Shown here: positions 4,197 to 29,852 of the stretch, piece by piece
Layout: every line of letters begins with the position of its first letter
Numbering within the stretch: the first letter of the stretch is position 1
Sequence record: PV467749.1
Source of the DNA: a phage
Length of the DNA: 64,000 nt
Reading direction: 5' to 3' (one strand)
Notes under the pieces: model-generated
What the model saw: only the letters and a program-made list of their open reading frames with translations
Databases searched by the model: none
Told to the model about the DNA's origin: nothing
Program-made: the position numbers and the translations under genes

Positions 4197-4408
4197 AATT
4201 TGCTCCTGATATATTTCTCAAGAGATGACAAATACTTTTCCTCATAATACTTCTGATAGTCTGTTCCTAAGAATGCACCCAAAAGTATTTCATTTTCCAA
4301 TACCTCGGCTAAGTTTAAATCAGAAGTCTCTTCGTATATTATGAGGATTTCAAGTTGTCTGGCAGCGATGCGTTCAGTATATTGATATGAGTTTTCTATA
4401 ATAATCAT
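4193..4408 (-). CDS. Family A small protein
   Basis: Track ORF 71 aa; LGTDYQKY; close paralog of the 3984 copy. Confidence 0.5.
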   Translation of the reverse strand: MIIIENSYQYTERIAARQLEILIIYEETSDLNLAEVLENEILLGAFLGTDYQKYYEEKYLSSLEKYIRSKL

Positions 4409-4614
4409 AATTTACTCTTTATATCTTGAATTAAAAATCGAATCCATTCTTCAACATAATCTTCCTGATGGTTTGTGTTCAGTACAGCCAACATGCGGAT
4501 CTCTGCTCTTGCAACTTCAATTTCAGTTTTAGGAAGGTCTTTGCTGATATCCACCATTAAGTCCATGTATTTCAAGATAAGACCGTATGATTGGGTTCGT
4601 GTTATAGTTTTCAT
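4405..4614 (-). CDS. Family A small protein
   Basis: Track ORF 69 aa; LNTNHQED. Confidence 0.5.
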   Translation of the reverse strand: MKTITRTQSYGLILKYMDLMVDISKDLPKTEIEVARAEIRMLAVLNTNHQEDYVEEWIRFLIQDIKSKL

Positions 4615-4811
4615 TGTTTCCTCGTGGACAATATTTTATTTTTCAATGTATCCATATATTGAATCACCCATCTTTCCTGATAGTTAGTTCCCAAAGTAAT
4701 CAAAAGGTATAACTCCATTCGTTCTACGTGTGTGTCTGTATTATAAATCTTTGTGAAGTTTTTACGTAACAGTTCTTGATAATCTTCTTTATTTAAAATA
4801 CGCATTTTCAT
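4611..4811 (-). CDS. Family A small protein
   Basis: Track ORF 66 aa; LGTNYQER. Confidence 0.5.
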   Translation of the reverse strand: MKMRILNKEDYQELLRKNFTKIYNTDTHVERMELYLLITLGTNYQERWVIQYMDTLKNKILSTRKQ

Positions 4812-5005
4812 AGTCTACCTTTTATGTCCCTTCGTAATTCTTGTAAGTATAGTTCGATATACTTTTCTTGATAGTTAGTTCCTATGAAAAGTTTCATAAC
4901 CAATTCACGCTTATATGCAATACCACGGATATGTGACATATGTAGGATATATGCCATGTTGGATATGAGTGTGTGGTTGTGCTCTTCTTGAGTTAAAATA
5001 CGCAT
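4808..5005 (-). CDS. Family A small protein (first gene of array)
   Basis: Track ORF 65 aa; IGTNYQEK; preceded on minus strand by TTGACT-N16-TATATT and GGAG RBS (~5012-5075). Confidence 0.5.
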   Translation of the reverse strand: MRILTQEEHNHTLISNMAYILHMSHIRGIAYKRELVMKLFIGTNYQEKYIELYLQELRRDIKGRL

Positions 5006-5034
5006 AGGGACTCCATTAAAAATAATATCAATCC

Positions 5035-5075
5035 AATAATATACGATTCATATAAAAAGTCAATAACATTTTATA
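5035..5075 (-). promoter_or_regulatory. Candidate sigma70-like promoter driving the family A array
   Basis: Minus strand reads TTGACT-16nt-TATATT then GGAG and the ATG at 5005. Confidence 0.4.
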
Positions 5076-5254
5076 AGTAATACCCCTTTATCGAAGTCGC
5101 TAAGGTTACCCGCCCTTTAGCCCCCTACGCATTTTGCCATAGTCCAATCCCTTTTTATTCATAAAAGTCAAGGGATTACCTATGCATTTTTTTAACGCTG
5201 AAGTTTAAAAATGCCTTGACTTTTTTATGATTCAGTACTAAATCCTTTTACGCA

Positions 5255-5464
5255 TTAATCCTTCGTTACGCTTACGATTATCTGTGTATCCCCATAGTCC
5301 TGCCATACTTCCACGCCAGCCGTCGCCCTGGTTAGTCGTGCTGTCATCTGCTTAATGGTCTTAGGCTTTAGTGGAACCTGTTGCAGTACTGTACGCATAG
5401 CACTATCGACGTTATCATGTACGCCTGCAATAGTGCCTAGGACGCTGTATACTGTATAGAACAT
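5255..5464 (-). CDS. Hypothetical protein
   Basis: Track ORF 69 aa; GGAGGG RBS before ATG; GC-rich hairpin AGGCCGC/GCGGCCT upstream at ~5496-5516. Confidence 0.45.
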   Translation of the reverse strand: MFYTVYSVLGTIAGVHDNVDSAMRTVLQQVPLKPKTIKQMTARLTRATAGVEVWQDYGDTQIIVSVTKD

Positions 5465-5532
5465 ATGTATGCCCTCCTGATATAGTTAAGGCCGCTACAA
5501 GGCGGCCTATGATGTTTGGTGATGTGTAACGC

Positions 5533-5934
5533 TTACAGTCCTAAGATAGTGCGTGCTTCGTTACGTTCCGTACACAGCTGCATGATGTGAGCAAGTAAGT
5601 CCTTGCTAATGTATCCGGTGTTCATAGCTTCACGAATAGATACATCATAAGCACCGAACCCAGTGCGAACGATACGCACATCATTCAGGTTAGTATTATA
5701 GATACCGCCGAGATCAACGGCTTCGAATACTACATCAACAGAATATTCATTGTTGCCATCGTGGAAGTTTTCCAGTGCAATAGTATTGGAAACCGCCCAA
5801 CGTTTGCAGTTTCCAATGATGCGGCACTGTTCCGGTTGGATAGTGCCATTACTTACAGCGTACTCCAGTGCATCTTTACCAAAAGTCCGAGCCAGTACTA
5901 AAACGTCAGCGAAGGAAGTGATTGAGAAGGTCAT
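5533..5934 (-). CDS. Hypothetical protein
   Basis: Track ORF trimmed to MTFSITSF behind AAGGAG RBS; upstream track residues translate the promoter/hairpin. Confidence 0.55.
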   Translation of the reverse strand: MTFSITSFADVLVLARTFGKDALEYAVSNGTIQPEQCRIIGNCKRWAVSNTIALENFHDGNNEYSVDVVFEAVDLGGIYNTNLNDVRIVRTGFGAYDVSIREAMNTGYISKDLLAHIMQLCTERNEARTILGL

Positions 5935-6023
5935 GATAAAACTCCTTAATTTAGGAGGGAGAACCATTTCCCCCTCTCTATGTAAAACATTATACATGAA
6001 TCTAAGTACTATGCAAGTACTTT

Positions 6024-6356
6024 TTACATTTTGATACCTGGATTCAGGTAGCGGTGAGATCCATACTCTGGATCGGTTTCGGTCCAGTACTGTAAATCGA
6101 TAGTACCTTTCGCGTTAATCTTGTCTACCAGCTTATTCATCTTAGCGTATACTACATCAGCATCGATGCGTTTAAAGCCAGTGGCTTTAGTGAAGTAGTA
6201 GTGATTTGCTTCACTATCATTCAGGATGTACCGAGAACCGTTTGCCGTTTGTGCGATAATGATTGAGTATTCTACGTTACGGTCGAGGCCGTCGATGAAT
6301 ACAGAGGAAACATTAGTACGGATGAATGCTTTAACGATAGCGATTGAAGTAGTCAT
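6024..6356 (-). CDS. Hypothetical protein
   Basis: Track ORF 110 aa. Confidence 0.5.
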   Translation of the reverse strand: MTTSIAIVKAFIRTNVSSVFIDGLDRNVEYSIIIAQTANGSRYILNDSEANHYYFTKATGFKRIDADVVYAKMNKLVDKINAKGTIDLQYWTETDPEYGSHRYLNPGIKM

Positions 6357-6557
6357 TTTGAATCTCCTAACTTTGTGGGCCGTCGCACCATTGCCGCCCT
6401 ACGAGATACATTATCGCAGTACTGATATACTTTGTCAATACTTTTTTATTAATAGTTTTCACCCCACCAGCAGATAGTTACTCACCGTTATTAACTATAT
6501 ATTTTGGATACACCTATGCACCCTGTGGGCTAGTTTTTGTCTATGCGTATATAATAG

Positions 6558-6590
6558 CAAAGGGACTGACCGGAGTCAATCCCTTTTTTT
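6558..6590 (-). terminator. Rho-independent terminator (UCCG loop) with embedded -35
   Basis: AAAGGGACTGAC-CGGA-GTCAATCCC flanked by A-run and T-run; on minus the stem carries TTGACT followed by TATTAT. Confidence 0.55.
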
Positions 6591-6601
6591 ATTCTTTTTT
6601 G

Positions 6602-6802
6602 TTAGATGATTCTCCAATCATCAACGATCATGGTAAGATACCGAACCAGTGATTCGAGTGATTCGTGTTCTCGATAGTCTGCCGCTCCACCAGCGGTACA
6701 AGTACAGCCGATTAAGCCGTTTTGTAGTTCCTGGATCTTTACGTCGATCTGGTTGGCTTTAGCTTCTTTCAGTACTGCAACCAGGGCGATAGCGATAGAC
6801 AT
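6602..6802 (-). CDS. Hypothetical protein
   Basis: Track ORF 66 aa; upstream promoter/leader hairpin module. Confidence 0.45.
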   Translation of the reverse strand: MSIAIALVAVLKEAKANQIDVKIQELQNGLIGCTCTAGGAADYREHESLESLVRYLTMIVDDWRII

Positions 6803-6892
6803 AATGTTTTACTCCAAACTATTGGCGGGAGAACTATTCCCCCGCTCTATGTAAAACATTATACATTACTGGTTAGTACTGTCAAATAGTTT

Positions 6893-7150
6893 TTATGAAA
6901 TATCTTCGATGTAGTCGGCCCATTTCATTTTTTCAGTACTGTCAATGGCGACCGGATTATTTGGATCAAACCATTCACCATCACCGCAATACATACCCAC
7001 GGCTACGGTTTTATAGCCATCCTGGGCAGTACACCACGACATTGCACGATAGATATGGCCTTTAACTGGTTGCAGTACTGGTAACGTTTTATGGTCTTCT
7101 ACGTAGGCCATAGCTTGTGGATTTACCCGATATTGTGTGAACTGATCCAT
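6893..7150 (-). CDS. Hypothetical protein
   Basis: Track ORF 85 aa. Confidence 0.5.
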   Translation of the reverse strand: MDQFTQYRVNPQAMAYVEDHKTLPVLQPVKGHIYRAMSWCTAQDGYKTVAVGMYCGDGEWFDPNNPVAIDSTEKMKWADYIEDIS

Positions 7151-7226
7151 TATGTTTCCCCTTGTAGTTAGTAAAGTTATTACATCAGTACTATCAAGCT
7201 ATGTCAATAGTACTGAAATAAAACTT

Positions 7227-7451
7227 TTAGATTAGATTATTGAGGCCGTCAATGGTAGACTCACCTTCTTCTTTCTCCCATTGTCGGTAGTACTTCCATG
7301 CTTCATGATAGGTGGCGATTAGTTCATCTTTTTGATCCTGGTTACATGCCAGTACTGAATCACGGTGAGCGGTGTTATAGATAGAATCGAATGATTTCTT
7401 CTCTTCTGCCAGGTTAGCTACTTCCCGCATCAGTTCATCAAAGTTAGCCAT
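7227..7451 (-). CDS. Hypothetical protein
   Basis: Track ORF 74 aa; AAGGAG RBS; promoter TTGCAT-17-TATAAT plus leader hairpin at 7470-7526. Confidence 0.55.
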   Translation of the reverse strand: MANFDELMREVANLAEEKKSFDSIYNTAHRDSVLACNQDQKDELIATYHEAWKYYRQWEKEEGESTIDGLNNLI

Positions 7452-7469
7452 TTTATTACTCCTTTTAGT

Positions 7470-7526
7470 GGGGGAGGATATCTCCCCCTATGCAAAACAT
7501 TATACTTTGTTTTAGTTATTATGCAA
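7470..7526 (-). promoter_or_regulatory. Early-type promoter plus 5' leader hairpin (representative of ~30 copies)
   Basis: Minus strand: TTGCAT-17nt-TATAAT, gttttgcata, hairpin GGGGGAG/CTCCCCC, then AAGGAG RBS. Confidence 0.6.
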
Positions 7527-7782
7527 GTACTTTTTTCATATAAACATTAAATTCTACACCGCCGTAACCTTCCACGATGATATGTTTTGCGTTATCACGT
7601 TTGCACATAGTGAAACCGTTGTTGATGTGTTCTGAATTTTCCAGGGCGACATCACCGATAGCGGCACATACAGCACTAATAACAGTATTCCGCAAAGTAC
7701 TGGTATCATTGGCGGTCATAGTAGTTTGCAGTACTACGTTGTCGTATACGTGTGCATTGATAGTGATTTCGATAGTGTTCAT
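7519..7782 (-). CDS. Hypothetical protein
   Basis: Track ORF trimmed to MNTIEITINA; promoter/leader module at 7801-7862. Confidence 0.5.
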   Translation of the reverse strand: MNTIEITINAHVYDNVVLQTTMTANDTSTLRNTVISAVCAAIGDVALENSEHINNGFTMCKRDNAKHIIVEGYGGVEFNVYMKKVLA

Positions 7783-7800
7783 GTTGTATCTCCTGGACTT

Positions 7801-7862
7801 GAGGGGAAACCATTTCCCCCTCTCGATATAAAACATTATACGTTAATCTAACTACAATGCAA
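7801..7862 (-). promoter_or_regulatory. Early-type promoter plus 5' leader hairpin
   Basis: Minus strand: TTGCAT-16nt-TATAAT then hairpin GAGGGG/CCCCTC; plus-strand signature gatataaaacattatacg. Confidence 0.6.
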
Positions 7863-7869
7863 GTACTTT

Positions 7870-8061
7870 TTAAATTTTATTTCCGATATAGTCCGGCATG
7901 TTCTTTTCAGTCATACGCTTTGCTAATGTCTGCATATGGCTTATAGCGTTCAAGGTGTCTTCCTCCAGGGATGAATCGAGATAATCAGGATCATTCTTCA
8001 CCTTGCAATGATTATGATAGCGTAGTACTGCCAGTACTTTTTTAACTTCTTCAACTGTCAT
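7870..8061 (-). CDS. Hypothetical protein
   Basis: Track ORF 63 aa. Confidence 0.45.
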   Translation of the reverse strand: MTVEEVKKVLAVLRYHNHCKVKNDPDYLDSSLEEDTLNAISHMQTLAKRMTEKNMPDYIGNKI

Positions 8062-8330
8062 AATAAGTACTCCACTTCGTTAGCTTTCAGGTTAGTATCA
8101 ATCATCAATGGTTTTTTGTAGTTCACAAAACGATTAGTTTTTTCGATAGCAAATCCCATATAATCCAGCTTACTAACAGTACATTCATTCTTAAAAACTT
8201 CTTTCGCTGCATCGATGGCTGATTGCATGGATAACCGACCATCTAAATTAATGTTTCCAAATGATCCACCAGCAGAAGTAGGATTACCGTTCATATCTTT
8301 AATGATCATAGTAGCGGAGTAGCTGGACAT
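8058..8330 (-). CDS. Hypothetical protein
   Basis: Track ORF 90 aa; start overlaps stop of 7870..8061 gene. Confidence 0.5.
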   Translation of the reverse strand: MSSYSATMIIKDMNGNPTSAGGSFGNINLDGRLSMQSAIDAAKEVFKNECTVSKLDYMGFAIEKTNRFVNYKKPLMIDTNLKANEVEYLL

Positions 8331-8417
8331 AATTTTGTTTCCTTTTATTGGTGGGGAGAACTATTCTCCCCTTGATGTAAACTATTATACAGTACTGATA
8401 TACTTTGTCAAATACTT

Positions 8418-8825
8418 TTATTCGCCCATATAGATTAGATTATCATCGCCTACATAGGGATCGCAAACGTTGATTTCTTCGCAGTACTTAGTGAATATAT
8501 CATCATAGTGACCGATATCACGATCCCAAAAACCAGTGCCGTGACCTTCGCGAGTAAGAAAGAGATCATGACCTGCATGACTATAAGTATAATCAGGATT
8601 ATGGTGTTTTTGTACTGTTTCCATATCTTCACCATGTACAGCAAGGAAACGTGAACATGCAATCACTGCCGCTTGATGGGCTTGCTCTGATAATTCATAA
8701 TCTTCCAGGTATTCGCCGTTCTCATTGTGTACTGTACTGAATTGCATAGCTTCAATGTAACCAGCGACCATTGCAGCATGATTTTTATCGTTGGCGATGG
8801 ACCGAGCTTGATTAGTAGTAGTCAT
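8418..8825 (-). CDS. Hypothetical protein (His/Asp-rich)
   Basis: Track ORF 135 aa. Confidence 0.5.
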   Translation of the reverse strand: MTTTNQARSIANDKNHAAMVAGYIEAMQFSTVHNENGEYLEDYELSEQAHQAAVIACSRFLAVHGEDMETVQKHHNPDYTYSHAGHDLFLTREGHGTGFWDRDIGHYDDIFTKYCEEINVCDPYVGDDNLIYMGE

Positions 8826-8908
8826 GATTTTATTCCTTTTAGTATCGGGGAGAACTATTCTCCCCTTGATGTAAACTATTATACAGTACTGGTATACTTT
8901 GTCAATAC

Positions 8909-21150: not shown

Positions 21151-21390
21151 TTACATTCCAACCATTGCAGCACGGATCGCAGTAGTGCTATATTTGAATC
21201 CGTCCGGCGTTGTAGTAGTACCGTTGGCTTTTAATCTGCGGTACATACATTCCGCAGCAATATCTTTAGTTCTACTTTGTGCGATGCAACTTTGTGCAAG
21301 CCGATACAATGACTCACCGTTATTAATCCAAAGGCTTACATTCCAATGAGTTTTGTTTTTGTGTCCGTTGTAAGTTTTAGTACTAGCCAT
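21151..21390 (-). CDS. Hypothetical protein (paralog of 23196..23435)
   Basis: Shares KNKTHWNVSLWINN...PDGFKYSTTAIRAAMVGM. Confidence 0.55.
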   Translation of the reverse strand: MASTKTYNGHKNKTHWNVSLWINNGESLYRLAQSCIAQSRTKDIAAECMYRRLKANGTTTTPDGFKYSTTAIRAAMVGM

Positions 21391-23195: not shown

Positions 23196-23435
23196 TTACA
23201 TTCCAACCATTGCCGCACGGATCGCAGTAGTGCTATATTTGAATCCGTCCGGTGTTTTATCTTGTCCAGTCTGTTCTAAAAATAACATCATATGACGGGC
23301 CGCATCATTGCGATTAGTGCTATCGTTAATAAAGTCCTGGGCCAACCGGTATAATGATTCATCGTTATTAATCCAAAGGCTTACATTCCAATGAGTTTTG
23401 TTTTTGTGACCTAAGAACATTTTTGATTTAGCCAT
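23196..23435 (-). CDS. Hypothetical protein (paralog of 21151..21390)
   Basis: Trimmed to MAKSKMFLGHKNKTHWN. Confidence 0.55.
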   Translation of the reverse strand: MAKSKMFLGHKNKTHWNVSLWINNDESLYRLAQDFINDSTNRNDAARHMMLFLEQTGQDKTPDGFKYSTTAIRAAMVGM

Positions 23436-23891: not shown

Positions 23892-24199
23892 CGTTTTAAT
23901 CTCTCTTAAAAGTGAGTTAGGAGCGTTTCCCCCGTCTCGATGTAAAACATTATACGCCTTTAAACATAGTTTACAAGTACTTTCTACAAATACTTTTAAA
24001 ATAGTTTTCTTTCTATATAGGGAAACTATCATTCAGTACTGAATCAACCAAATCACTACTACACCCCGTAAAACGGCCTCAATCGCATTCTAACGCATTA
24101 TTACACCTAAGCTATACATTTGCACCATTCTAATCATTCCAGTGCGTTACGGGCCGTTTAAACGCGTTAAATTATTTTCAATTATTTTGTTTTTAGGTA

Positions 24200-24227
24200 T
24201 TGACTCAGTACTAAAAAAGCGTATAAT
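24200..24227 (+). promoter_or_regulatory. Plus-strand early-type promoter in ORF-free region
   Basis: TTGACT-16nt-TATAAT then tactacatagacgcgagaaag. Confidence 0.5.
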
Positions 24228-24415
24228 TACTACATAGACGCGAGAAAGCGGATACCCCAGGGGGTGCGGAATTGTGCCCAAAATTCAAGATATAAAAAAA
24301 GGATACACTCCCGCACCCTAGCAGGTAAACGCACTTTCTCAGTACTGAAATATAGTACCATAGTCCGGCCCAGGATAGCAAGCAAATTAATTAAAACTTT
24401 TTTGCTTCCAGGGTA

Positions 24416-24443
24416 TTGCTTTATTTTTTCAGTACTGTATAAT
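24416..24443 (+). promoter_or_regulatory. Plus-strand promoter candidate
   Basis: TTGCTT-16nt-TATAAT then agttccatcaagtcgagaaag and CCCACCGGGTGC. Confidence 0.45.
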
Positions 24444-24540
24444 AGTTCCATCAAGTCGAGAAAGACTCAAGCCCACCGGGTGCATAGTTACGCCCAAAAT
24501 TCAGTACTGAAAAAATTTTTAAAAATATCCGTCCAGGTCG

Positions 24541-24569
24541 TTGACATTGCCCCCAGTTTATAAGATAAT
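24541..24569 (+). promoter_or_regulatory. Plus-strand promoter candidate
   Basis: TTGACA-17nt-GATAAT. Confidence 0.4.
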
Positions 24570-24666
24570 GATTCCAGATTCAGAAAAATCTAACACCAGA
24601 TACTGCGGGGAAACTATCCCCACGCGGTAGGGGAACTATTGGAAAAAACAAAATAAAATTTTGATT

Positions 24667-24794
24667 TAGCCGTCTATACTTCCAGACGTGTAACCATCTA
24701 GCCGTTTAGCCGTCCAAACGTCTAGCCATCCAGCCATCCAGAAATCTAGCCGTTTAGCCGTCTAGATGGATAGCCATCTTTACTTCCAGACTTC
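24667..24794. repeat. Tandem degenerate 8-bp repeat array (consensus TAGCCRTC, ~16 units)
   Basis: Strict 8-bp phase: tagccgtc tatacttc cagacgtg taaccatc tagccgtt tagccgtc caaacgtc tagccatc cagccatc cagaaatc tagccgtt tagccgtc tagatgga tagccatc ... Confidence 0.6.
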
Positions 24795-25875
24795 TGGAGG
24801 GCTAGACATATCTACGCCCAAAATCCATCCAGGGTAACTACACCCAAAATCCGTCAGTACTATACCATAGATCTATCTTTTGAAAGGGAGTATTCAGTAC
24901 TGCCATCATAGCCCTCACTATGTTACCCTAGGAGGATGAAGACTATCATGTAGTACTGAATACTGTTAGAGGGAATCCACCAGCTTGTGCTGGTGGCATA
25001 ATGCTTTAGATTAAAATCAGTACTGACACCATTCTGTTAATATCAGTACTGTTATTACGATTTTCATATGAGGTTCAAAAAGATGTACCACCACAGGAGG
25101 AACTATCTTTTCTGTACTGTCTCACGACAGGAGGTAGAGTAAATGAATTGTTCGCAGCAACTCATCTCTCTATGTAGAACATTATACAGTACTGAATCAT
25201 AATGTCAATAGCTTTCTTTCATTATTCAGTACTGATATTCTTGAGAACTACCCGACTACAAACATCATTATATCCCACAAATCATAAACGTCCCAACGTA
25301 AATTTCAACTTTCGAAGAACCAACTTTTATTTCATAGGTACTCCAAAATTTTTAGGATCGAGATTTAGGATGGAGTACTAACCAACTTTTTGCTGGAGCC
25401 TCAAGGGGTAATTGAATTTTACCCCGAAGGGTAAAAGGGTAATTGAAATTAAGGTGAAAGTAATAATTCAGTACTAATCATTGCGTGATTACTTTTGATT
25501 ACATTTGATGTAATTTGCAAAATGGAAAAGGAGCTTGGAAACTACAAAGTACGGCAGACTTCCTCTGCCTACTTAGTGACATATCGACACCTTCAGTACT
25601 GAATACTTTTAGGGCAGTACTGAATCCTTCCCTAGCATTCTTGAGTAATCTTGTCTATAATAATCAGTACTGAATCATATATAATCATTCTGTGATTCTA
25701 CGGTGCTCATATAAATGTTTATATATGATTACTTATGACTACATATGATTACGGGGTTTAGCCTGGGGAGAATCCTAGTGATCGCATTTGTCCAGGCTGA
25801 ATTTTAACAATTCTTCTAATTGTTAAAGCCTGTCCAATGCTTTCCCTGCGGAGCTTCCCCTGTCTATATGTTGAA

Positions 25876-26082
25876 TTACTTCCTATATATAAGCATTAAC
25901 ATATAGTAGTACTGATTATGCTGTACATTCTCTTTAATATTATAAGGGTCTATAGCAATCTCGGTACATCTGTTAAATGCATATCTATTAAATGCCAGTA
26001 CTATTATAGATCTAATCCATGCTTGGTCAGTCGGTGGTAGTTTACTTATATAGTACTCTTTATAGTTTTTTATGTTCTGCAT
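25876..26082 (-). CDS. Family B small protein
   Basis: Track ORF 68 aa; N-terminal EYY/EFY and hydrophobic C-terminus LMLIYRK. Confidence 0.45.
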   Translation of the reverse strand: MQNIKNYKEYYISKLPPTDQAWIRSIIVLAFNRYAFNRCTEIAIDPYNIKENVQHNQYYYMLMLIYRK

Positions 26083-26093
26083 AGTATACCTTA

Positions 26094-26285
26094 TTATTTC
26101 AAAGTACCATATAGTACTCTTAATAGGAAGTAGTACGTATTAGAGATATCATTAGTAGTTAAAACAATCTTAGTACACATATTAAATTCGTATTGAGTCA
26201 TTGCCAGGGGGATTAAATTGTTAACCCATGCTTGTTCGTTTTCTTTGAGTTTACTTATATAGAAATCTTTATGTTCTTTATTCAT
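26094..26285 (-). CDS. Family B small protein
   Basis: Track ORF 63 aa; MNKEHKDFYISKL. Confidence 0.45.
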   Translation of the reverse strand: MNKEHKDFYISKLKENEQAWVNNLIPLAMTQYEFNMCTKIVLTTNDISNTYYFLLRVLYGTLK

Positions 26286-26487
26286 ATAGGAATAGTATAC
26301 CTATGATGCCGGAGTACATATTAGTACTGTTATTATTGTCGTTTGCGTTTAAGGTCATTTGAATACAATTATTGTAGCATAATCTGCCGAAATATGTATC
26401 AGTACTTAAAGGTGCTGTAGTCCTTAGAAACATTTGTTCTGTGGGGCTGAGGTGTTTGGAGTAGAATTCTTTATGTTCTTTATTCAT
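26278..26487 (-). CDS. Family B small protein
   Basis: Track ORF 69 aa; close paralog of the 26861 copy. Confidence 0.5.
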   Translation of the reverse strand: MNKEHKEFYSKHLSPTEQMFLRTTAPLSTDTYFGRLCYNNCIQMTLNANDNNNSTNMYSGIIGILFLYE

Positions 26488-26492
26488 ATTAG

Positions 26493-26678
26493 TTAGTGTC
26501 TGTATATAAGTAATAGTAAGAATACGTACTGCACCTGTTCATCTTTAGTATTGAGTACTGTACGTATTGCGTCATGGAACAAGAATATAGTACTTGGGTC
26601 ATTAGAATTTAAGGGGTTTACGGGGACGGCGTGTTTGTAGTTCCCTTTAACAAATTGTATATAGTATTCTCTATGCAT
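26493..26678 (-). CDS. Family B small protein
   Basis: Track ORF 61 aa. Confidence 0.45.
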   Translation of the reverse strand: MHREYYIQFVKGNYKHAVPVNPLNSNDPSTIFLFHDAIRTVLNTKDEQVQYVFLLLLIYRH

Positions 26679-26679
26679 A

Positions 26680-26868
26680 TCAGTACCTATATATTAGGGC
26701 GAGAATGTAGTACAGTTTATATGTATTATAATCTGGGTTGATAGCACATAGTGTGTGGTAGTGGAATTGTTTGGTATTTTTCTTATCCTTGATATCTATT
26801 GGGATTTGTGGTATAAGCATTTGGGAGTTTAGATCGAGATGGCTTAAGTAGAATTCTTTGTTATTCAT
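26680..26868 (-). CDS. Family B small protein
   Basis: Track ORF 62 aa. Confidence 0.45.
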   Translation of the reverse strand: MNNKEFYLSHLDLNSQMLIPQIPIDIKDKKNTKQFHYHTLCAINPDYNTYKLYYILALIYRY

Positions 26869-27067
26869 AGAAGAATATTAGTCCCATTACGCCTGAGTAT
26901 TGAATATTTTTGTTATTGTTTTCTAAAGCTTCTAGAGTAATACGTATACAATTATTAAAGCAATCTCTGGCGTGTGGTGTATCTAAACGTAAAGGTGATA
27001 CACTCCTTAGAAACATTTGTTCTGATGCACTGAGGTGTTTGGTGTAAAATTCTTTCTGTTCGTTCAT
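26861..27067 (-). CDS. Family B small protein
   Basis: Track ORF 68 aa; MNEQKEFYTKHLSASEQMFLR. Confidence 0.5.
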   Translation of the reverse strand: MNEQKEFYTKHLSASEQMFLRSVSPLRLDTPHARDCFNNCIRITLEALENNNKNIQYSGVMGLIFFYE

Positions 27068-27077
27068 ATTGGCCTCT

Positions 27078-27266
27078 TTAGTACACGAAAGCTAGGTACA
27101 GTACATGATACAGTACTCGATGATAGCTATCAAAATCTAGTATACATGCTTTAGTGCACATAGTAAAGTACACTTTATCGTTTTGAGCATTGATACCGCG
27201 AGGTTTATCTAATAGATTAGTACTGAGGTACATTGGGAAATATTTTGTGTAGTATTCTTTATGCAT
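27078..27266 (-). CDS. Family B small protein
   Basis: Track ORF trimmed to MHKEYYTKYF. Confidence 0.45.
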   Translation of the reverse strand: MHKEYYTKYFPMYLSTNLLDKPRGINAQNDKVYFTMCTKACILDFDSYHRVLYHVLYLAFVY

Positions 27267-27267
27267 A

Positions 27268-27450
27268 TTAGTACCTGAATATAAGTAGGATAGTGTTATA
27301 TAATTGGTCATAGCTACTACTATTTTCTATACTGCGTTCTATGCAATTATTGAATCCCAGTACTGCCAAATCGTTATCCAGGGGGACTTTATATCTGGCG
27401 TAGTGTTCAAATATACTGGGGAGAAATTGTGTGTAGTATTCTTTGTGCAT
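27268..27450 (-). CDS. Family B small protein
   Basis: Track ORF 60 aa; MHKEYYTQFL. Confidence 0.45.
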   Translation of the reverse strand: MHKEYYTQFLPSIFEHYARYKVPLDNDLAVLGFNNCIERSIENSSSYDQLYNTILLIFRY

Positions 27451-27451
27451 A

Positions 27452-27643
27452 TTAGTACTTATATATTAGTAAAAGGATGTGATACAGTACTCTATTATAG
27501 TCCTCAATATATATCGAGGATTTAGTGCACTGAATGAAGTAGTCTTTTTCGTAGTCTTTTTCTATACTCAATTGTTTTGTTGGTACAAGGTGTTGGAGAT
27601 ACATTGGGAGTTTCTCTATGTAGTATTCTTTGTGGTTATTCAT
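27452..27643 (-). CDS. Family B small protein
   Basis: Track ORF 63 aa. Confidence 0.45.
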   Translation of the reverse strand: MNNHKEYYIEKLPMYLQHLVPTKQLSIEKDYEKDYFIQCTKSSIYIEDYNRVLYHILLLIYKY

Positions 27644-27651
27644 ATTATGTG

Positions 27652-27825
27652 TTATTTCGTGAAAACAAGGGTTAGTACTGCATAGTACAAGTCATACGTA
27701 TCTTTAGGGTTAATAGCACCTTTAATACATTCTTTCATTACTTCATTATAGATAATTTTAGTACTGAATGTATTGGATGTTACTATATCGGAATTAAGGT
27801 ACGAGAGGTAGAATTCTTTATACAT
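27652..27825 (-). CDS. Family B small protein
   Basis: Track ORF trimmed to MYKEFYLSYL. Confidence 0.4.
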   Translation of the reverse strand: MYKEFYLSYLNSDIVTSNTFSTKIIYNEVMKECIKGAINPKDTYDLYYAVLTLVFTK

Positions 27826-28477
27826 AGTTTGAAATATACGTAATGAGGTGATGAAATTTCTTATCAGTACTGATAAGTTCCTGTACATGTTTTGTTAGTT
27901 TGTACGCGTTTTTATAGAGTCCTGGATTATCGATTACAGTACTGTACATGAATTCTTCTTCCTCGGATAATTCTTTGTGTTCTAGTTCTTTGAGGAATTG
28001 CAGTACTGTATCAGTTTCGTTAGTACGTTGCTTTTGGAAGAAGTGCATGTTATCGTGTATTTTTTCTGAACCCATGCAGTACATATCGCCGATTTGGAAT
28101 TGTGCAGTACTGATATCATGGGTGCTATTACAATTCCCGAAGAAGTATACATTCCCGAAAGATAGAATTATAGTGCACGGGATATTATCCATGTGTATAT
28201 AGATAGATGCATTCTTTAGTGCTTTTGTGCTGGTATTAGTACTCAATACTTTTAAATCAGTATTATAGATATTAATAAAAGCAAGAGCTATATTATTTTT
28301 CTTCAAGTACGATTTGAGGTTCTTAGATACGAGAACATTTCTGGATTTTTTCTTTTTATTTCGTTTCTTTAGTACACACGGGTCGTAAGTATATGCTGGT
28401 GTAAAAGATTCTGCTTGAATACTGTTGAGGTATTTAAAGTGCTTAAGGTATTGTTTGCTGTGTGCATTAAGTTTCAT
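27818..28477 (-). CDS. Hypothetical protein (219 aa) embedded in the family B array
   Basis: Track ORF; Lys-rich N-half; CNST motif and size loosely recall the 48973..49623 gene. Confidence 0.5.
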   Translation of the reverse strand: MKLNAHSKQYLKHFKYLNSIQAESFTPAYTYDPCVLKKRNKKKKSRNVLVSKNLKSYLKKNNIALAFINIYNTDLKVLSTNTSTKALKNASIYIHMDNIPCTIILSFGNVYFFGNCNSTHDISTAQFQIGDMYCMGSEKIHDNMHFFQKQRTNETDTVLQFLKELEHKELSEEEEFMYSTVIDNPGLYKNAYKLTKHVQELISTDKKFHHLITYISNYV

Positions 28478-28487
28478 TTGGTTTCCT

Positions 28488-28667
28488 TTATACAGATGCG
28501 AGAGCGAGGATTTCCCTGAAGGGATTATCTTTTGTTAGTGCGTGATGAATGCAGCTATTGAGATTAATATTTTTAGTACTATTAGTTGCCAGGTTGTAGT
28601 ACTTCACGAAGGTGTCGTACATGAAACGGTCTTTAATGCTTATGTGTTCTATATAGTATTCTTGCAT
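28488..28667 (-). CDS. Family B small protein (59 aa, not in track)
   Basis: Manual translation MQEYYIEHISIKDRFMYDTFVKYYNLATNSTKNINLNSCIHHALTKDNPFREILALASV. Confidence 0.4.
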   Translation of the reverse strand: MQEYYIEHISIKDRFMYDTFVKYYNLATNSTKNINLNSCIHHALTKDNPFREILALASV

Positions 28668-28675
28668 ATTATTCC

Positions 28676-28864
28676 TTACATAGAGATGAGTTTCAGTACA
28701 TCAATATACATATAACGTTCAGATGACAGTACACGGGTAGTGATAATCTCAATCGATATATTTTTAATTCCATGTGCAGATGATTGATGGTGCTGAATAA
28801 ATGAGTTGTGCATACTTTGTTCTATGTGGTTTAGTTTATTGAAGTAGTACTCAAAAGTGTTCAT
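28676..28864 (-). CDS. Family B small protein
   Basis: Track ORF 62 aa; C-terminal VLKLISM. Confidence 0.45.
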   Translation of the reverse strand: MNTFEYYFNKLNHIEQSMHNSFIQHHQSSAHGIKNISIEIITTRVLSSERYMYIDVLKLISM

Positions 28865-28871
28865 GTCTACC

Positions 28872-29051
28872 TTAGATTAAGATTAGTTTAAGTACTTCTC
28901 TGTACGTGTACTTTTCGTTTTGTGCTTCTACTGTACACGAGAGTAGATAACGTTTTTTATCTCTTTTGTTCCCGACTGTGTAGTACCTTTGGAATTTATT
29001 ATAGTTGTATCTATCTTTGTGCTGGAGGTTATAGATATAGAATTCTTGCAT
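28872..29051 (-). CDS. Family B small protein (59 aa, not in track)
   Basis: Manual translation MQEFYIYNLQHKDRYNYNKFQRYYTVGNKRDKKRYLLSCTVEAQNEKYTYREVLKLILI. Confidence 0.4.
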   Translation of the reverse strand: MQEFYIYNLQHKDRYNYNKFQRYYTVGNKRDKKRYLLSCTVEAQNEKYTYREVLKLILI

Positions 29052-29059
29052 AGAGTACC

Positions 29060-29245
29060 TTAGATTGCTATCAGTTTGAGTACTTCAATATATGTGCGGT
29101 ACTCTGCTTTAATTAAATTTGTACACACTGTAAGGGAATTTCTTTGTATAAGTTTATTGCCGCTTTTATACGCATTTCTCCACACATAGAGATGAGATCT
29201 TTCAGGCATAGATAGTTTATTTGTATAGTACTCAAATGTGTTCAT
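29060..29245 (-). CDS. Family B small protein
   Basis: Track ORF 61 aa; C-terminal EVLKLIAI. Confidence 0.45.
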   Translation of the reverse strand: MNTFEYYTNKLSMPERSHLYVWRNAYKSGNKLIQRNSLTVCTNLIKAEYRTYIEVLKLIAI

Positions 29246-29253
29246 ATATTACC

Positions 29254-29436
29254 TCAAATAGAGATTAGTTTAAGTACTTCTCTGTATGTGTACTTTTCGT
29301 TTTGTGCATCTCTTGTGCTTGTATATAGGTATCCTCGACGATATTTGTTGCTCCCGTTCTTGTAGTTGAATTCGAACTTATTGTAGATGAATCTATCGCC
29401 AGGCTGTAATTTACTTAAGTACAATTCAATGTTCAT
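29254..29436 (-). CDS. Family B small protein
   Basis: Track ORF trimmed to MNIELYLSKL. Confidence 0.45.
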   Translation of the reverse strand: MNIELYLSKLQPGDRFIYNKFEFNYKNGSNKYRRGYLYTSTRDAQNEKYTYREVLKLISI

Positions 29437-29446
29437 AGTATTCTCT

Positions 29447-29632
29447 TTACATATCAATAAGTTTCAGTACTGCTCTGTACGTGTACTTAGTTGTTAGTGC
29501 TTCTTTTATAGCAATACAGAAGTAATGTTGTTTGTCTCTTATACTACCGCGTTTGTAGTACCATACATTGGAGTTGTGGGTGTACTTGTCCCTGTCGGAT
29601 AGATTTTGGTAATAGTATAATATATGATTCAT
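29447..29632 (-). CDS. Family B small protein
   Basis: Track ORF 61 aa; C-terminal AVLKLIDM. Confidence 0.45.
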   Translation of the reverse strand: MNHILYYYQNLSDRDKYTHNSNVWYYKRGSIRDKQHYFCIAIKEALTTKYTYRAVLKLIDM

Positions 29633-29832
29633 GGTAATGTAATTAGCCTTATTATGTTAAAGTACTCGGTCCCTGGTACACCTTGTAGAATATTATCAAC
29701 TACATTTTCTTGGTGCAGGATTAATACATTCGGTGCGGTTCTTTTAAGGTTTTTTAAAGTACTGTATTCTTGTTTAAGGATGAACTGTACATCTTTAGGG
29801 AGAATATCTAAGTAGTACTGGTGTATGTTCAT
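29629..29832 (-). CDS. Family B small protein
   Basis: Track ORF trimmed to MNIHQYYLDILP. Confidence 0.45.
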   Translation of the reverse strand: MNIHQYYLDILPKDVQFILKQEYSTLKNLKRTAPNVLILHQENVVDNILQGVPGTEYFNIIRLITLP

Positions 29833-29852
29833 AGTTTTCATATAGTACTCTT

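What the first reader, a model, noticed from the sequence alone, without database searches (positions are those of the whole stretch)
24667..24794. 8-bp periodic repeat array inside a 1.3-kb ORF-free region
The segment 24.6-25.9 kb has no credible ORF on either strand. Within it, about 16 units keep a strict 8-bp phase with consensus TAGCC(G/A)TC. The period is not a multiple of three, so it is not coding, and 8-bp iterons are unusual. Candidate roles are a replication origin, a packaging or partition site, or an array of binding sites for a phage DNA-binding protein.
Basis: seen in the sequence. Interest (0 to 1): 0.65.

Follow-up and report, generated by a model that had tools for sequence, protein, structure and literature searches.

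The report
Host MetJ-repressor box array in phage
The 8-bp repeats are a run of 14-18 back-to-back binding boxes for the host's methionine/SAM repressor MetJ, sitting at the edge of a jumbo coliphage's 20-kb terminal repeat, and unrelated phages of MetJ-bearing bacteria carry the same kind of array, which suggests phages exploit this host protein at their genome ends.

Summary
Window 24667-24794 holds 16 units in strict 8-bp phase (z = 17.5 against shuffles), is unique in the window, and stays in phase to 24811.

The window is an Asteriusvirus jumbo coliphage (PBECO4/121Q/G17 type). The array lies in a 1.85-kb non-coding stretch that straddles the inner edge of the 20.5-kb direct terminal repeat (5103-25573). 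It is 0.8 kb from the physical genome end.

Shifted by one base, the unit is the MetJ 'metbox' (consensus AGACGTCT). With the published metbox matrix and site rules, the 64-kb window has exactly one site: 14 contiguous boxes, 103 bits. Two E. coli operators used as a positive control scored 25-31 bits with 4 boxes each.

Arrays of 8-44 boxes occur in other jumbo genera, in T5-like phages (at the slot of the T5 'injection stop signal'), in a T7-like phage and in others. All their hosts belong to MetJ-bearing orders, with one exception. No phage encodes MetJ. No plasmid or E. coli genome carries such an array.

Best reading: a host MetJ-SAM binding super-array acting in cis as a roadblock at the repeat boundary. 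A MetJ decoy is the main rival. Binding and function are inferred, not shown. An origin, partition or phage-protein site is not supported.

The parts
24668..24779 (.). Core array: 14 contiguous 8-bp MetJ-type boxes (AGCCGTCT ATACTTCC AGACGTGT AACCATCT AGCCGTTT AGCCGTCC AAACGTCT AGCCATCC AGCCATCC AGAAATCT AGCCGTTT AGCCGTCT AGATGGAT AGCCATCT)
   Evidence: Every box is at or above 3.15 bits and the total is 102.8 bits, using the Augustus & Spicer matrix and rules. This is the only qualifying site in the 64-kb window.
24780..24811 (.). In-phase tail of the array: TTACTTCC (0.3 bits), AGACTTCT (8.6), GGAGGGCT (0.1), AGACATAT (8.6)
   Evidence: The same tail is present in G17, fEgEco12 and SHEFM2K.
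24541..24569 (+). Sigma-70 promoter TTGACA-N17-GATAAT reading into the array, which starts about 90 nt after the predicted transcription start
   Evidence: 11 of 12 consensus matches. Nearly invariant in six Asteriusvirus phages (one substitution in the spacer in A4; both hexamers invariant), including the divergent EJP2. A promoter sits at the same distance in Serratia BF, Xanthomonas XbC2 and Pectobacterium CBB.
24603..24627 (+). Conserved leader hairpin CTGCGGGG-aaactat-CCCCACGCGG
   Evidence: The stem keeps pairing through compensatory changes between genera: GGGG/CCCC, CTAG/CTAG, CTGG/CCAG.
24629..24648 (+). Conserved motif AGGGGAACTATTGGAAAAAA (Shine-Dalgarno-like, followed by a start codon and a 3-15 codon mini-ORF of non-conserved sequence)
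   Evidence: Seen in the alignment of three genera. Its role is unknown.
24200..24227 (+). Upstream sigma-70 promoter TTGACT-N16-TATAAT, followed by a small conserved hairpin element (24238-24290) ending in GCCCAAAATTC
   Evidence: 11 of 12 matches. The element is conserved in BF and XbC2.
24977..24996 (.). Inverted pair of Chi sites in a hairpin, CCACCAGC-ttgt-GCTGGTGG. The + strand Chi is oriented to be read by RecBCD entering from the right physical end, 580 bp away.
   Evidence: Conserved in G17 with a different loop.
25181..25208 (-). Perfect sigma-70 consensus promoter (TTGACA-N16-TATAAT, 12/12) reading leftward through the Chi pair and the array towards the terminal-repeat genes. It converges with the promoter at 24541.
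25553..25573 (.). Right edge of the direct terminal repeat, which is the physical genome end (...GGCAGACTTCCTCTGCCTACT | TAGTG), preceded by a short hairpin
   Evidence: The last base of G17 aligns to window 25573. Six records that start at the physical end place window 24900 at their position 674. The fEgEco12 termini were determined by PhageTerm and restriction digests (PMC13070987).
5103..25573 (.). Direct terminal repeat (20,471 bp in this phage) that contains the array. Its annotated genes are all on the - strand.
   Evidence: G17 position 1 aligns to window 5103. The G17 repeat offset is 350,149, giving a repeat of 20,668 bp. Records of 366-384 kb hold the region twice.
24033..25875 (.). 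Non-coding control region that straddles the repeat boundary

Best explanation
The array is a super-sized operator for the host methionine repressor MetJ, a ribbon-helix-helix dimer with S-adenosylmethionine (SAM) as corepressor.

MetJ binds one dimer per 8-bp 'metbox'. It needs adjacent boxes, and neighbouring dimers contact each other. In a SAM-replete E. coli cell, the 14 contiguous boxes (18 in phase) should therefore be coated by one continuous MetJ-SAM filament over about 115-145 bp. That is 3-4 times longer than the two E. coli operators measured here.

The array sits in the non-coding control region at the inner edge of the 20.5-kb terminal repeat, 0.8 kb from the physical DNA end. It lies about 90 nt downstream of a conserved sigma-70 promoter and between convergent promoters.

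I infer that it acts in cis as a SAM-dependent protein roadblock or insulator for whatever moves along the DNA at the repeat boundary: RNA polymerase, and possibly DNA entry, RecBCD or the packaging motor. This is the same slot where T5-like phages of Providencia, Vibrio and Aeromonas carry 8-28 such boxes, namely the position of the T5 'injection stop signal'.

Shown: the repeat, its match to the metbox matrix, its position relative to the genome end, and its recurrence. Inferred: that MetJ binds it (my estimate about 0.7) and that the role is a cis-acting roadblock (about 0.35).
For: (1) Matrix test. I used the published information matrix and site rules: each box at least a quarter of the consensus score, the site at least 12.58 bits, boxes contiguous (PMC3228920). 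The window then has exactly one site, 24668-24779, with 14 boxes and 102.8 bits.

(2) Positive control. The same scan of 5 kb of E. coli MG1655 finds only two sites, one in the metJ-metB intergenic region and one just upstream of metF, where MetJ operators are expected. Each has 4 boxes (31.2 and 24.9 bits), a per-box score like the phage's 7.3 bits.

(3) Specificity. About 230 kb of other scanned DNA gave only two borderline 2-box sites.

(4) Unit-level chance. The commonest unit, AGCCGTCT, scores 9.48 bits. A random 8-mer repeat unit in its best phase reaches that with P = 0.0018.

(5) Format. Contiguous 8-bp boxes with CTAG at the junctions, and inverted units (AGATGGAT is the reverse complement of ATCCATCT), fit a symmetric dimer reading DNA rather than an RNA motif.

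(6) Recurrence. BLAST with an artificial array of metbox variants hit 106 of 50,697 phage records. They include Rak2-like jumbo phages of three genera, Demerecviridae of Vibrio, Aeromonas and Providencia, the T7-like PGT2, Pseudoalteromonas PH1 (about 44 units) and Vibrio D164. Different lineages use different box variants, but all stay within the metbox matrix. Lineage consensus sequences are AGCCGTCT, AGACGTCT, AGCCATCC and ATACATCT.

(7) Host range. All hosts lie in orders that have MetJ (Enterobacterales, Vibrionales, Aeromonadales, Alteromonadales), except Xanthomonas XbC2.

(8) No phage encodes MetJ.

(9) Evolution by whole boxes. Asteriusvirus phages carry 8, 12, 14, 15, 15 and 21 boxes, while the flanking promoter and leader stay nearly invariant.

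(10) Position. The array is 0.65-0.93 kb from the record start in four of the jumbo genera (Asteriusvirus, Eneladusvirus, Mimasvirus and the Erwinia pEa_SNUABM phages), and that start is an experimentally supported physical end only for fEgEco12, vB_Ec-M-J, G17 and CBB. In Providencia PR1 it is about 770 bp inside the 10,461-bp terminal repeat, between DnaA boxes and a GCGC nick-like motif. That is where T5's first-step transfer stop maps.

(11) The promoter-to-array distance of 90-100 nt is conserved across genera.
Against: No binding experiment exists.

The dominant half-site, AGCC, has C at position 3. That base is found in only 10% of natural half-boxes. T at position 5, common in the Vibrio and Aeromonas phages, is found in 4%.

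Xanthomonas phage XbC2 keeps an intact array although Xanthomonadales lack MetJ. Its genus mate CBB infects Pectobacterium, Erwinia and Cronobacter.

The host restriction is partly confounded by phage phylogeny, because only about 6 independent lineages are involved.

T5 itself has no array, so the element is not required for a T5-type terminal repeat.

The window has no DnaA or LexA boxes and no A1/A2 homologues, so equivalence to the T5 stop signal is positional only.

The roadblock role has no direct support. Strong motors such as RecBCD or a terminase are known to displace bound proteins (my own knowledge).
Confidence: 0.5

Rival explanations
1. MetJ decoy (sponge). The array's purpose is to titrate host MetJ. 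With two arrays per genome and many replicated genomes, it would derepress the host methionine/SAM regulon (metA, B, C, E, F, K, NIQ) and raise methionine and SAM supply for phage protein synthesis and DNA methylation.
For: It rests on the same MetJ-box evidence as the best explanation. The array is many times larger than any operator. Lying in the terminal repeat doubles its dose and brings it in on early-entering DNA. Box number drifts freely between 8 and 24, as expected if only total capacity matters. The T7-like PGT2 carries an array 38-109 bp from its record start and an early SAM-dependent methyltransferase gene.
Against: A sponge could sit anywhere, yet the array keeps a fixed place next to the repeat edge and a fixed 90-100 nt distance from a conserved promoter in three genera. 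T5-type phages degrade host DNA within minutes in the pre-early phase, which would make derepression of host genes pointless for the T5-like carriers. One infecting genome offers only about 30 boxes.
Confidence: 0.2
2. Binding site for a phage-encoded protein (small terminase or packaging factor, end-binding protein, or a ribbon-helix-helix regulator such as ParG or omega) that happens to resemble metboxes.
For: The array is 0.8 kb from the physical end, where recognition sites for cutting and duplicating the repeat are expected. Ribbon-helix-helix proteins are known to read contiguous 7-8 bp repeats (parH/ParG, PMC3130281). XbC2 keeps the array in a host without MetJ.
Against: The same box type occurs in at least four unrelated phage groups. 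In the small part of their genomes that I could compare, they share no detectable protein apart from one DUF7249 protein of unknown function, found only in PGT2 and the window. No ribbon-helix-helix, MetJ or Par domain was found in the 20 repeat-encoded proteins nearest the array. There is no phage MetJ. Similar arrays are absent from 72,556 plasmids.
Confidence: 0.12
3. RNA-level element. The conserved promoter at 24541 makes a non-coding RNA in which (UAGCCGUC)n is a repeated motif for an RNA-binding protein, or forms a structure.
For: The promoter and a leader hairpin with compensatory changes are conserved across genera. The predicted 295-nt RNA folds better than shuffles (z = -3.2).
Against: Units occur in both orientations. 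The T5-like arrays have no comparable upstream promoter. Near-palindromic units give spurious hairpins. There is no Rfam match.
Confidence: 0.08
4. Replication origin with 8-bp iterons.
For: The region is non-coding and repeat-rich. The cumulative GC-skew minimum of the window lies at about 25.9 kb.
Against: The skew switch is 1 kb away from the array. It coincides with the start of a compositionally distinct paralogous gene family whose genes are still on the - strand. There are no DnaA boxes and no initiator gene nearby. The units are contiguous and not in helical phase. The region sits inside a terminal repeat.
Confidence: 0.05
5. Functionless microsatellite kept going by replication slippage.
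For: Copy number varies by whole units. IMG/VR also contains perfect 8-bp microsatellites such as (AGCCTTCC)n at contig ends.
Against: The units are degenerate, yet all remain within the metbox matrix. The array is retained at the same place across genera whose flanks are barely alignable, and it recurs in unrelated phages.
Confidence: 0.03

Closest known systems
E. coli / gammaproteobacterial MetJ operators (tandem 'metboxes', consensus AGACGTCT)
   Same: Contiguous 8-bp units without spacers and CTAG at the junctions. Each box and the whole site pass the published matrix and thresholds. Per-box information (7.3 bits) equals that of the sites found at the metJ-metB and metF control regions.
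   Different: 14-18 boxes here, and up to 28-44 in other phages, against 4 boxes in each of the two E. coli operators scanned here. It lies on a virulent phage, in a terminal-repeat non-coding region, not at the promoter of a methionine or SAM gene. The AGCC half-site dominates. Binding is untested.
Bacteriophage T5 'injection stop signal' region (Repeat Region 3 of the left terminal repeat)
   Same: A large non-coding, repeat- and palindrome-rich region at the inner end of a long direct terminal repeat that overlaps the repeat boundary. In T5-like phages PR1, Pontus, AhSzq-1 and PVo5 the metbox array lies inside this region, between the DnaA boxes and the nick or GTGCAAA repeats.
   Different: T5 itself has no metbox array. 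The window has no DnaA boxes, no LexA box and no A1/A2 genes. Two-step DNA transfer is not known for Asteriusvirus.
Ribbon-helix-helix centromeres and operators with short contiguous repeats (TP228 parH/ParG; pSM19035 omega heptads)
   Same: Arrays of degenerate short boxes with a 7-8 bp period, read by dimers that polymerise along DNA (parH: PMC3130281; omega from my own knowledge).
   Different: No par genes nearby and no plasmid counterpart. The box sequence is that of MetJ, not ACTC or WATCACW.
T7 SRL/SRR short-repeat arrays next to the terminal repeat (Dunn & Studier 1983; from my own knowledge)
   Same: Regular arrays of short repeats of unknown function next to the terminal repeat of a virulent phage. 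The T7-like PGT2 carries metboxes at 38-109 bp from its record start.
   Different: Different unit (a heptamer with spacers). No host-factor assignment.
Repressor-operator arrays as roadblocks (lacO/tetO arrays) and titration loci (datA for DnaA); from my own knowledge
   Same: Many tandem sites for one DNA-binding protein, acting either as a barrier to polymerases and forks or as a sink for the protein.
   Different: Those are artificial arrays or a chromosomal locus. A natural phage-borne array for a host metabolic repressor has not been described in the literature I could search.

Membership tests
MetJ operator (metbox array) | Units of exactly 8 bp, directly abutting, with at least two adjacent boxes | tested here: met
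   14 contiguous boxes and 18 in phase.
MetJ operator (metbox array) | Each box scores at least a quarter of the consensus, and the whole site at least the consensus score, with the Augustus & Spicer matrix | tested here: met
   Boxes score 3.8-10.7 bits and the total is 102.8 bits against a threshold of 12.58. This is the only such site in 64 kb. The control scan finds only two sites in the MG1655 control region, in the metJ-metB intergenic region and upstream of metF.
MetJ operator (metbox array) | The host organism encodes MetJ | tested here: met
   The host is E. coli; metJ is b3938 in MG1655. All other array-bearing phages infect MetJ-bearing orders, except XbC2.
MetJ operator (metbox array) | Overlaps or closely follows the promoter of a methionine or SAM metabolism gene | tested here: not met
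   It lies in phage non-coding DNA, about 90 nt downstream of a phage promoter with no met gene.
MetJ operator (metbox array) | SAM-dependent cooperative binding by MetJ is demonstrated | not testable with these tools
   Needs a gel-shift assay, footprinting or ChIP.
Iteron-type replication origin | Iterons of about 17-22 bp spaced in helical phase, with an adjacent AT-rich unwinding element and DnaA boxes | tested here: not met
   The units are 8 bp and contiguous. There is no TTWTNCACA, nor a relaxed DnaA box, in 23.9-26.0 kb.
Iteron-type replication origin | Adjacent initiator gene | tested here: not met
   No Rep or initiator domain in the 20 neighbouring proteins. The flanking genes are small proteins of unknown function.
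Iteron-type replication origin | GC-skew switch at the site | tested here: inconclusive
   The cumulative minimum is at about 25.9 kb, 1 kb from the array, at a boundary between compositionally different gene sets.
T5-type injection stop signal region | Large untranslated, repeat-rich region at the inner end of a long terminal repeat | tested here: met
   1.85 kb of non-coding DNA straddles the repeat edge at 25573.
T5-type injection stop signal region | Paired DnaA boxes in inverted repeats (IRD'/IRC'), as in all T5-like phages | tested here: not met
T5-type injection stop signal region | A1/A2 pre-early genes in the repeat | tested here: not met
   No tblastn match between window ORFs and the T5 or PR1 repeats, apart from one marginal hit to an acetyltransferase region.
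T5-type injection stop signal region | Two-step DNA transfer that stops at this site | not testable with these tools
   Needs blender or shear experiments, or time-resolved marker entry.
Ribbon-helix-helix partition centromere (parH/ParG type) | An array of short boxes next to parA/parG-type genes on a replicon that needs segregation | tested here: not met
   No Par domains. No match in plasmids. The phage is virulent.
Terminase recognition (pac/cos-type) site | Binding by the small terminase and a requirement for cutting at the repeat edge | not testable with these tools
   The only evidence is proximity to the end, 0.8 kb.

The most novel reading that the evidence does not exclude
Virulent phages with terminal repeats, from several unrelated families, use the host's SAM sensor MetJ as a structural part of their genome-end control region. 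A cooperative MetJ-SAM filament on 8-44 tandem boxes would be the physical 'brake' of stepwise genome entry, or of early transcription, at the terminal-repeat boundary. That would make it the long-sought injection stop element in non-T5 Demerecviridae and an equivalent in Rak2-like jumbo phages, and it would couple infection progress to the host's methyl-donor status.
Probability: 0.15. Interest if true: 0.9.

Novelty: new variant of a known kind. Interest (0 to 1): 0.72.

Why it matters
If MetJ really binds these arrays, this would be a natural case of phages carrying an oversized operator for a host metabolic repressor. It would have been kept for a long time and acquired repeatedly, always in or next to terminal repeats.

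It would give a named, testable host factor for the non-coding terminal-repeat regions of T5-like and Rak2-like phages. The function of these regions, including the T5 injection stop signal, has been open since the 1980s.

It would also link phage genome-end biology to SAM, the metabolite at the centre of restriction-modification, BREX and phage SAM-lyase counter-defence.

The tests are cheap: a gel-shift assay with MetJ and SAM, infection of metJ deletion hosts, and array deletion.

In practice, the published matrix scan marks such arrays with almost no false positives, and it could be used to annotate these regions and to help orient jumbo-phage genomes.

Tried and rejected
- tRNA scan and Rfam at gathering and E-value thresholds found nothing relevant.
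- RNA folding of the predicted transcript gave z = -3.2, but near-palindromic units explain that.
- Plasmid and E. coli genome searches with the array found no match, so it is not a plasmid centromere or a chromosomal or prophage element.
- tblastn of MetJ against phages returned only three bacterial contaminant records.
- Search for a protein shared by array-bearing phages: only a DUF7249/phrog_871 protein shared with PGT2, of unknown function and not a recognisable DNA binder.
- Pfam on 20 terminal-repeat proteins gave no ribbon-helix-helix or Par domain. The remaining ~30 proteins encoded in the repeat were not scanned.
- The idea that T5's DRC palindromes are Fur boxes was rejected: 15/19 matches against a background of 14/19.
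- DnaA, LexA and GTGCAAAT motifs in the window's non-coding region are absent or occur once.
- IMG/VR strict 4-box pattern gave 15 stretches. Several are perfect microsatellites at contig ends that may be assembly breaks, so I did not use them as evidence for end location.
- Literature searches for MetJ or metbox together with phage, terminal repeat or titration found no prior description. The Asteriusvirus, CBB and T5 papers do not mention the array.
Full report
Window 24667-24794 is 16 units in strict 8-bp phase. Identity at lags 8, 16, 24 and 32 is 0.60-0.63, against about 0.17-0.23 at other lags (about 0.3 at lags of 8n+4). The combined score is 0.617, against 0.255 +/- 0.021 in 5000 dinucleotide-preserving shuffles (z = 17.5), and nothing else in the 64 kb comes close; the next best stretch scores 0.41. 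Tandem Repeats Finder sees the period-8 array. The phase runs on for two more units, to 24811.

**2. Where the window comes from.** The region is 94-98% identical to Asteriusvirus jumbo coliphages (PBECO4, 121Q, G17, fEgEco12 and others). Records of 366-384 kb contain it twice, so it lies in the long direct terminal repeat.
- In G17 the two repeat copies are offset by 350,149 bp, which gives a repeat of 20,668 bp.
- The last base of the G17 record aligns to window 25573, and its first base to window 5103.
- Six other records that begin at the physical end put window 24900 at their position 674, which is the same terminus.
- For fEgEco12 the termini were determined with PhageTerm and confirmed by restriction digests (PMC13070987). 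For G17 and CBB they came from read depth.

The terminal repeat is therefore window 5103-25573. The non-coding stretch straddles its right edge, and the array lies 779-906 bp inside the physical end. All annotated genes in the repeat are on the - strand.

**3. The array is much older than the genus.** A sensitive BLAST of 24560-24900 hit other jumbo genera over the array part only. In those records the array lies 0.65-0.85 kb from the record start. The hits are Serratia BF (Eneladusvirus), Xanthomonas XbC2 and Pectobacterium CBB (Mimasvirus, inside the annotated 22,456-bp 'redundant repeat'), the Erwinia pEa_SNUABM phages, Yersinia fHe-Yen9-03/04 and Cronobacter GAP32.

In BF, XbC2 and CBB the whole layout is conserved although the sequence is barely alignable:
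- a sigma-70 promoter;
- a hairpin whose stem changes by compensatory substitutions (GGGG/CCCC, CTAG/CTAG, CTGG/CCAG);
- the motif AGGGGArCTAwTGG;
- the array, 90-100 nt after the promoter;
- ...CACCCAAAATTC.

Within Asteriusvirus the promoter and leader are nearly invariant even in the divergent EJP2, while the array changes by whole units: 8, 12, 14, 15, 15 and 21 qualifying boxes in SHEFM2K, G17, this window, fEgEco12, A4 and EJP2.

**4. The same array type occurs in unrelated phages.** The BLAST also hit T5-like Demerecviridae:
- Vibrio phage Pontus, 15 boxes;
- Aeromonas AhSzq-1, 28 boxes;
- Providencia PR1, 9 boxes;
- Vibrio PVo5, 8 boxes.

In PR1 the annotated terminal repeat is 1-10461 and the array is at 9620-9691, about 770 bp inside the repeat edge.

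In all four phages the array sits in the non-coding region. On one side are a LexA-type box and DnaA boxes. On the other side, in three of the four (PR1, Pontus, PVo5), are a GCGC nick-like motif and GTGCAAA-type repeats; AhSzq-1 has the GCGC-like motif but no such repeats. This is the architecture of T5 'Repeat Region 3', where the injection stop signal and the 7.9% nick map (Davison, bioRxiv 10.1101/866236; T5 annotation). T5 itself has other repeats at that spot and no array.

Further carriers are:
- the T7-like Escherichia phage PGT2, 9 boxes at 38-109 bp from the record start, and phiKT;
- Pseudoalteromonas PH1, about 44 units;
- Vibrio D164, two arrays;
- Klebsiella KMI5.

**5. What the unit is.** Read one base later, the units are AGCCGTCT, AGACGTGT, AAACGTCT, AGCCATCC and so on. 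These are variants of AGACGTCT, the 'metbox' of the methionine repressor MetJ. MetJ binds one homodimer per 8-bp box, needs two or more adjacent boxes, and uses S-adenosylmethionine as corepressor. On multiple adjacent boxes the dimers form a wheel-like assembly around the DNA (PMC3228920; PMC2775130).

I applied the published information matrix and site rules of Augustus & Spicer.
- The whole 64-kb window has exactly one qualifying site, 24668-24779. It has 14 contiguous boxes scoring 3.8-10.7 bits each, 102.8 bits in total against a threshold of 12.58. Two further strong in-phase boxes lie at 24788 and 24804.
- As a positive control, the same script run on 5 kb of E. coli MG1655 (metJ-metB-metL-metF) returns only two sites, one in the metJ-metB intergenic region and one just upstream of metF, where MetJ operators are expected. 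Each has 4 boxes, scoring 31.2 and 24.9 bits.
- About 230 kb of other scanned DNA yielded only two borderline 2-box sites.
- Only 1.05% of all 8-mers pass the box threshold.
- A random 8-mer repeat unit in its best phase reaches the 9.48 bits of AGCCGTCT with probability 0.0018.
- Lineages use different variants. The consensus is AGCCGTCT in the jumbo phages, AGACGTCT (the exact MetJ consensus) in Demerecviridae and PH1, AGCCATCC in PGT2 and ATACATCT in D164.
- All variants stay inside the substitutions tolerated by the natural matrix (r = 0.77-0.93). This figure is partly circular, because the boxes were selected with that matrix.
- Units also occur inverted: AGATGGAT is the reverse complement of ATCCATCT. 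That fits a symmetric dimer on DNA, not an RNA motif.

**6. Host range and the absence of a phage MetJ.** MetJ exists only in Enterobacterales, Pasteurellales, Vibrionales, Aeromonadales and Alteromonadales.
- A BLAST with an artificial array built from metbox variants, not from any phage, hit 106 of 50,697 phage records. The hosts were Vibrio, Escherichia, Erwinia, Aeromonas, Providencia, Salmonella, Yersinia, Pseudoalteromonas, Serratia, Pectobacterium, Cronobacter and Klebsiella. A search with the AhSzq-1 array gave a similar result.
- The one exception is Xanthomonas phage XbC2, whose genus mate CBB infects Pectobacterium, Erwinia and Cronobacter.
- No phage encodes a MetJ homologue; the three hits are bacterial contaminant records.
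- No similar array exists in 72,556 plasmids or 5,426 E. coli genomes.
- The 20 repeat-encoded proteins nearest the array have no ribbon-helix-helix, MetJ or Par domain.
- The array-bearing phage groups share no protein that I could detect, apart from a DUF7249 protein common to this window and PGT2.

The simplest common factor is the host's MetJ.

**7. How it probably works.**

Shown:
- the array and its match to the metbox matrix;
- its place in the terminal repeat, 0.8 kb from the end;
- the conserved promoter about 90 nt upstream on the + strand (24541-24569);
- a perfect consensus promoter on the - strand at 25208-25181 that reads back through the array towards the repeat's genes;
- an inverted pair of Chi sites between that promoter and the array.

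Inferred: in a SAM-replete cell, 14-18 MetJ dimers polymerise on the array and form a stable block between the convergent promoters at the repeat boundary.

I favour a cis-acting role, as a SAM-dependent roadblock or insulator for RNA polymerase and perhaps for DNA entry or end processing. There are three reasons.
- The position relative to the end and to the promoter is conserved across genera.
- In T5-like phages the array occupies the very slot where first-step DNA transfer stops in T5.
- T5-type phages destroy host DNA within minutes, which makes a pure decoy for derepressing host genes unattractive in that lineage.

Nine of the eleven Chi sites in the repeat are oriented against RecBCD entering from the left end. 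This would fit a T5-like picture in which the left end enters first and the array lies at the far end of the first-entering segment. That is only a hint.

**8. Rivals.**
- A MetJ decoy that derepresses the methionine/SAM regulon is the main alternative (0.2). It explains the size and the free drift in box number, but not the fixed position.
- A phage-protein site for packaging or end binding (0.12) cannot be excluded, given the nearby terminus and the XbC2 exception.
- An RNA-level function (0.08) is suggested by the conserved promoter and hairpin. It is weakened by inverted units and by promoter-less T5-like arrays.
- A replication origin (0.05) is not supported. There are no DnaA boxes, the units are not in helical phase, and the cumulative GC-skew minimum lies 1 kb away at about 25.9 kb, at the start of a compositionally distinct paralogous gene family.
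- Neutral slippage (0.03) does not explain the retention and recurrence.

**9. Known or new?** MetJ operators are textbook. A phage-borne array of 8-44 boxes at terminal-repeat boundaries is not described in any paper I could find. It is also not mentioned in the Asteriusvirus, CBB or T5 papers that I read. I file it as a new variant of a known kind.
- Membership in 'MetJ operator' is met on format, matrix score and host. It is not met on genomic context, and it is untested for binding.
- Membership in the T5 stop-signal family is positional only.

**10. Caveats.**
- No binding data exist.
- The AGCC half-site is a minority variant in natural operators (10%).
- Host restriction is partly confounded by phage phylogeny, with about six independent lineages.
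- XbC2 contradicts strict dependence on MetJ.
- The statements that RecBCD and packaging motors strip bound proteins and that lacO/tetO arrays block forks, and the description of T7 SRL/SRR, rest on my own knowledge.

Noticed in passing
window 6464, 6687, 8266, 10168, 13413, 14363, 14621, 18879, 24977 (- strand); 18941, 24989, 33229 (+ strand); 49493, 56846 (- strand): Chi sites (GCTGGTGG) are about 30-fold enriched: 14 found against 0.47 expected from base composition. Nine of the eleven inside the terminal repeat are oriented to stop RecBCD entering from the left physical end (5103). An inverted pair forms a hairpin 580 bp from the right end. This looks like Chi-based protection of the genome ends.
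   Followed up: partly
window 5234-30000, mainly: AGTACT occurs 274 times (16 expected), with none before 5234, which is just inside the left repeat edge. It is built into sigma-70-like early promoters on the - strand (AGTACTTGCAA-N17-TATAAT; TTGACA...AGTACTGTATAAT). It also appears as the palindrome TTCAGTACTGAA throughout the non-coding region. It could be an operator for an unknown regulator.
   Followed up: partly
window 24238-24330, 24452-24520, 24806-24860: Small paralogous elements follow strong + strand promoters: a hairpin GCGAGAAAGCG / GTCGAGAAAGAC, then a CCCC..GGGG hairpin, then GCCCAAAATyC. The first is conserved in Serratia BF and Xanthomonas XbC2. They could be small RNAs or bidirectional terminators.
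   Followed up: no
window 25876-29841 (- strand): A tandem family of about 18 paralogous genes for proteins of about 60 aa with hydrophobic C-terminal tails (...LLLIYRY, ...VLKLISI). GC content drops to 0.33 and GC skew flips to +0.2 exactly at its start, although the genes stay on the - strand. This produces the cumulative GC-skew minimum at about 25.9 kb.
   Followed up: partly
L008 531-550 (T5 9330-9349); L006 782-801; L015 3844-3863; L010 10189-10208: T5 'palindrome D' in the injection-stop region is a 19/20 match to the LexA box consensus (TACTGTATAAATATACAGTA). Pontus and PVo5 match 18/20 and PR1 15/20. Together with the DnaA boxes and, in some genera, the MetJ array, the T5-like non-coding region looks like a cluster of sites for host DNA-binding proteins.
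   Followed up: partly
window 23196-23435 and 21151-21390 (- strand); L011 743-955: Two paralogous DUF7249/phrog_871 proteins (79 aa) are encoded in the terminal repeat. One is 83% identical to gp03 of the T7-like phage PGT2, which also carries a metbox array. This indicates recent gene exchange between very different phages. The function is unknown.
   Followed up: partly
window 25553-25573; L004 3817-3836; L005 3800-3819: The last bases before the physical end share a GACTTC motif 12-17 nt from the terminus in Asteriusvirus (GACTTCCTCTGCCTACT|), Serratia BF (GACTTCAGGAGAAGATA|) and XbC2 (GACTTCAGGAACAGATA|). It is a candidate for part of the terminase cutting signal.
   Followed up: no
L013 3780-3940 (Pseudoalteromonas PH1); L015 4140-4620; L006 1-470; L008 873-1610: GTGCAAAT-type repeats (T5 'direct repeat D') accompany the metbox array in the T5-like phages Pontus and PVo5 (and occur in T5, which has no array), and also in the unclassified 42.7-kb phage PH1. 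This may be a second shared cis element with an unknown binder.
   Followed up: no
window 14015-14269 (- strand): An 85-aa protein with a DksA/TraR C4 zinc finger (Pfam E = 4e-9) is encoded among the terminal-repeat early genes. It is a possible modulator of host RNA polymerase.
   Followed up: no
L021 22-85 and L030 2791-2862 (same 54.4-kb IMG/VR contig); L029 18-81; L023 8201-8304; L032 7257-7544: Uncultivated viral contigs carry perfect 8-bp microsatellites (AGCCTTCC, GGATGGCT) at their very ends, and one has 36 tandem AGATGTCT/AGATGTCC boxes (356 bits). The end positions may be true termini or assembly breaks.
   Followed up: partly
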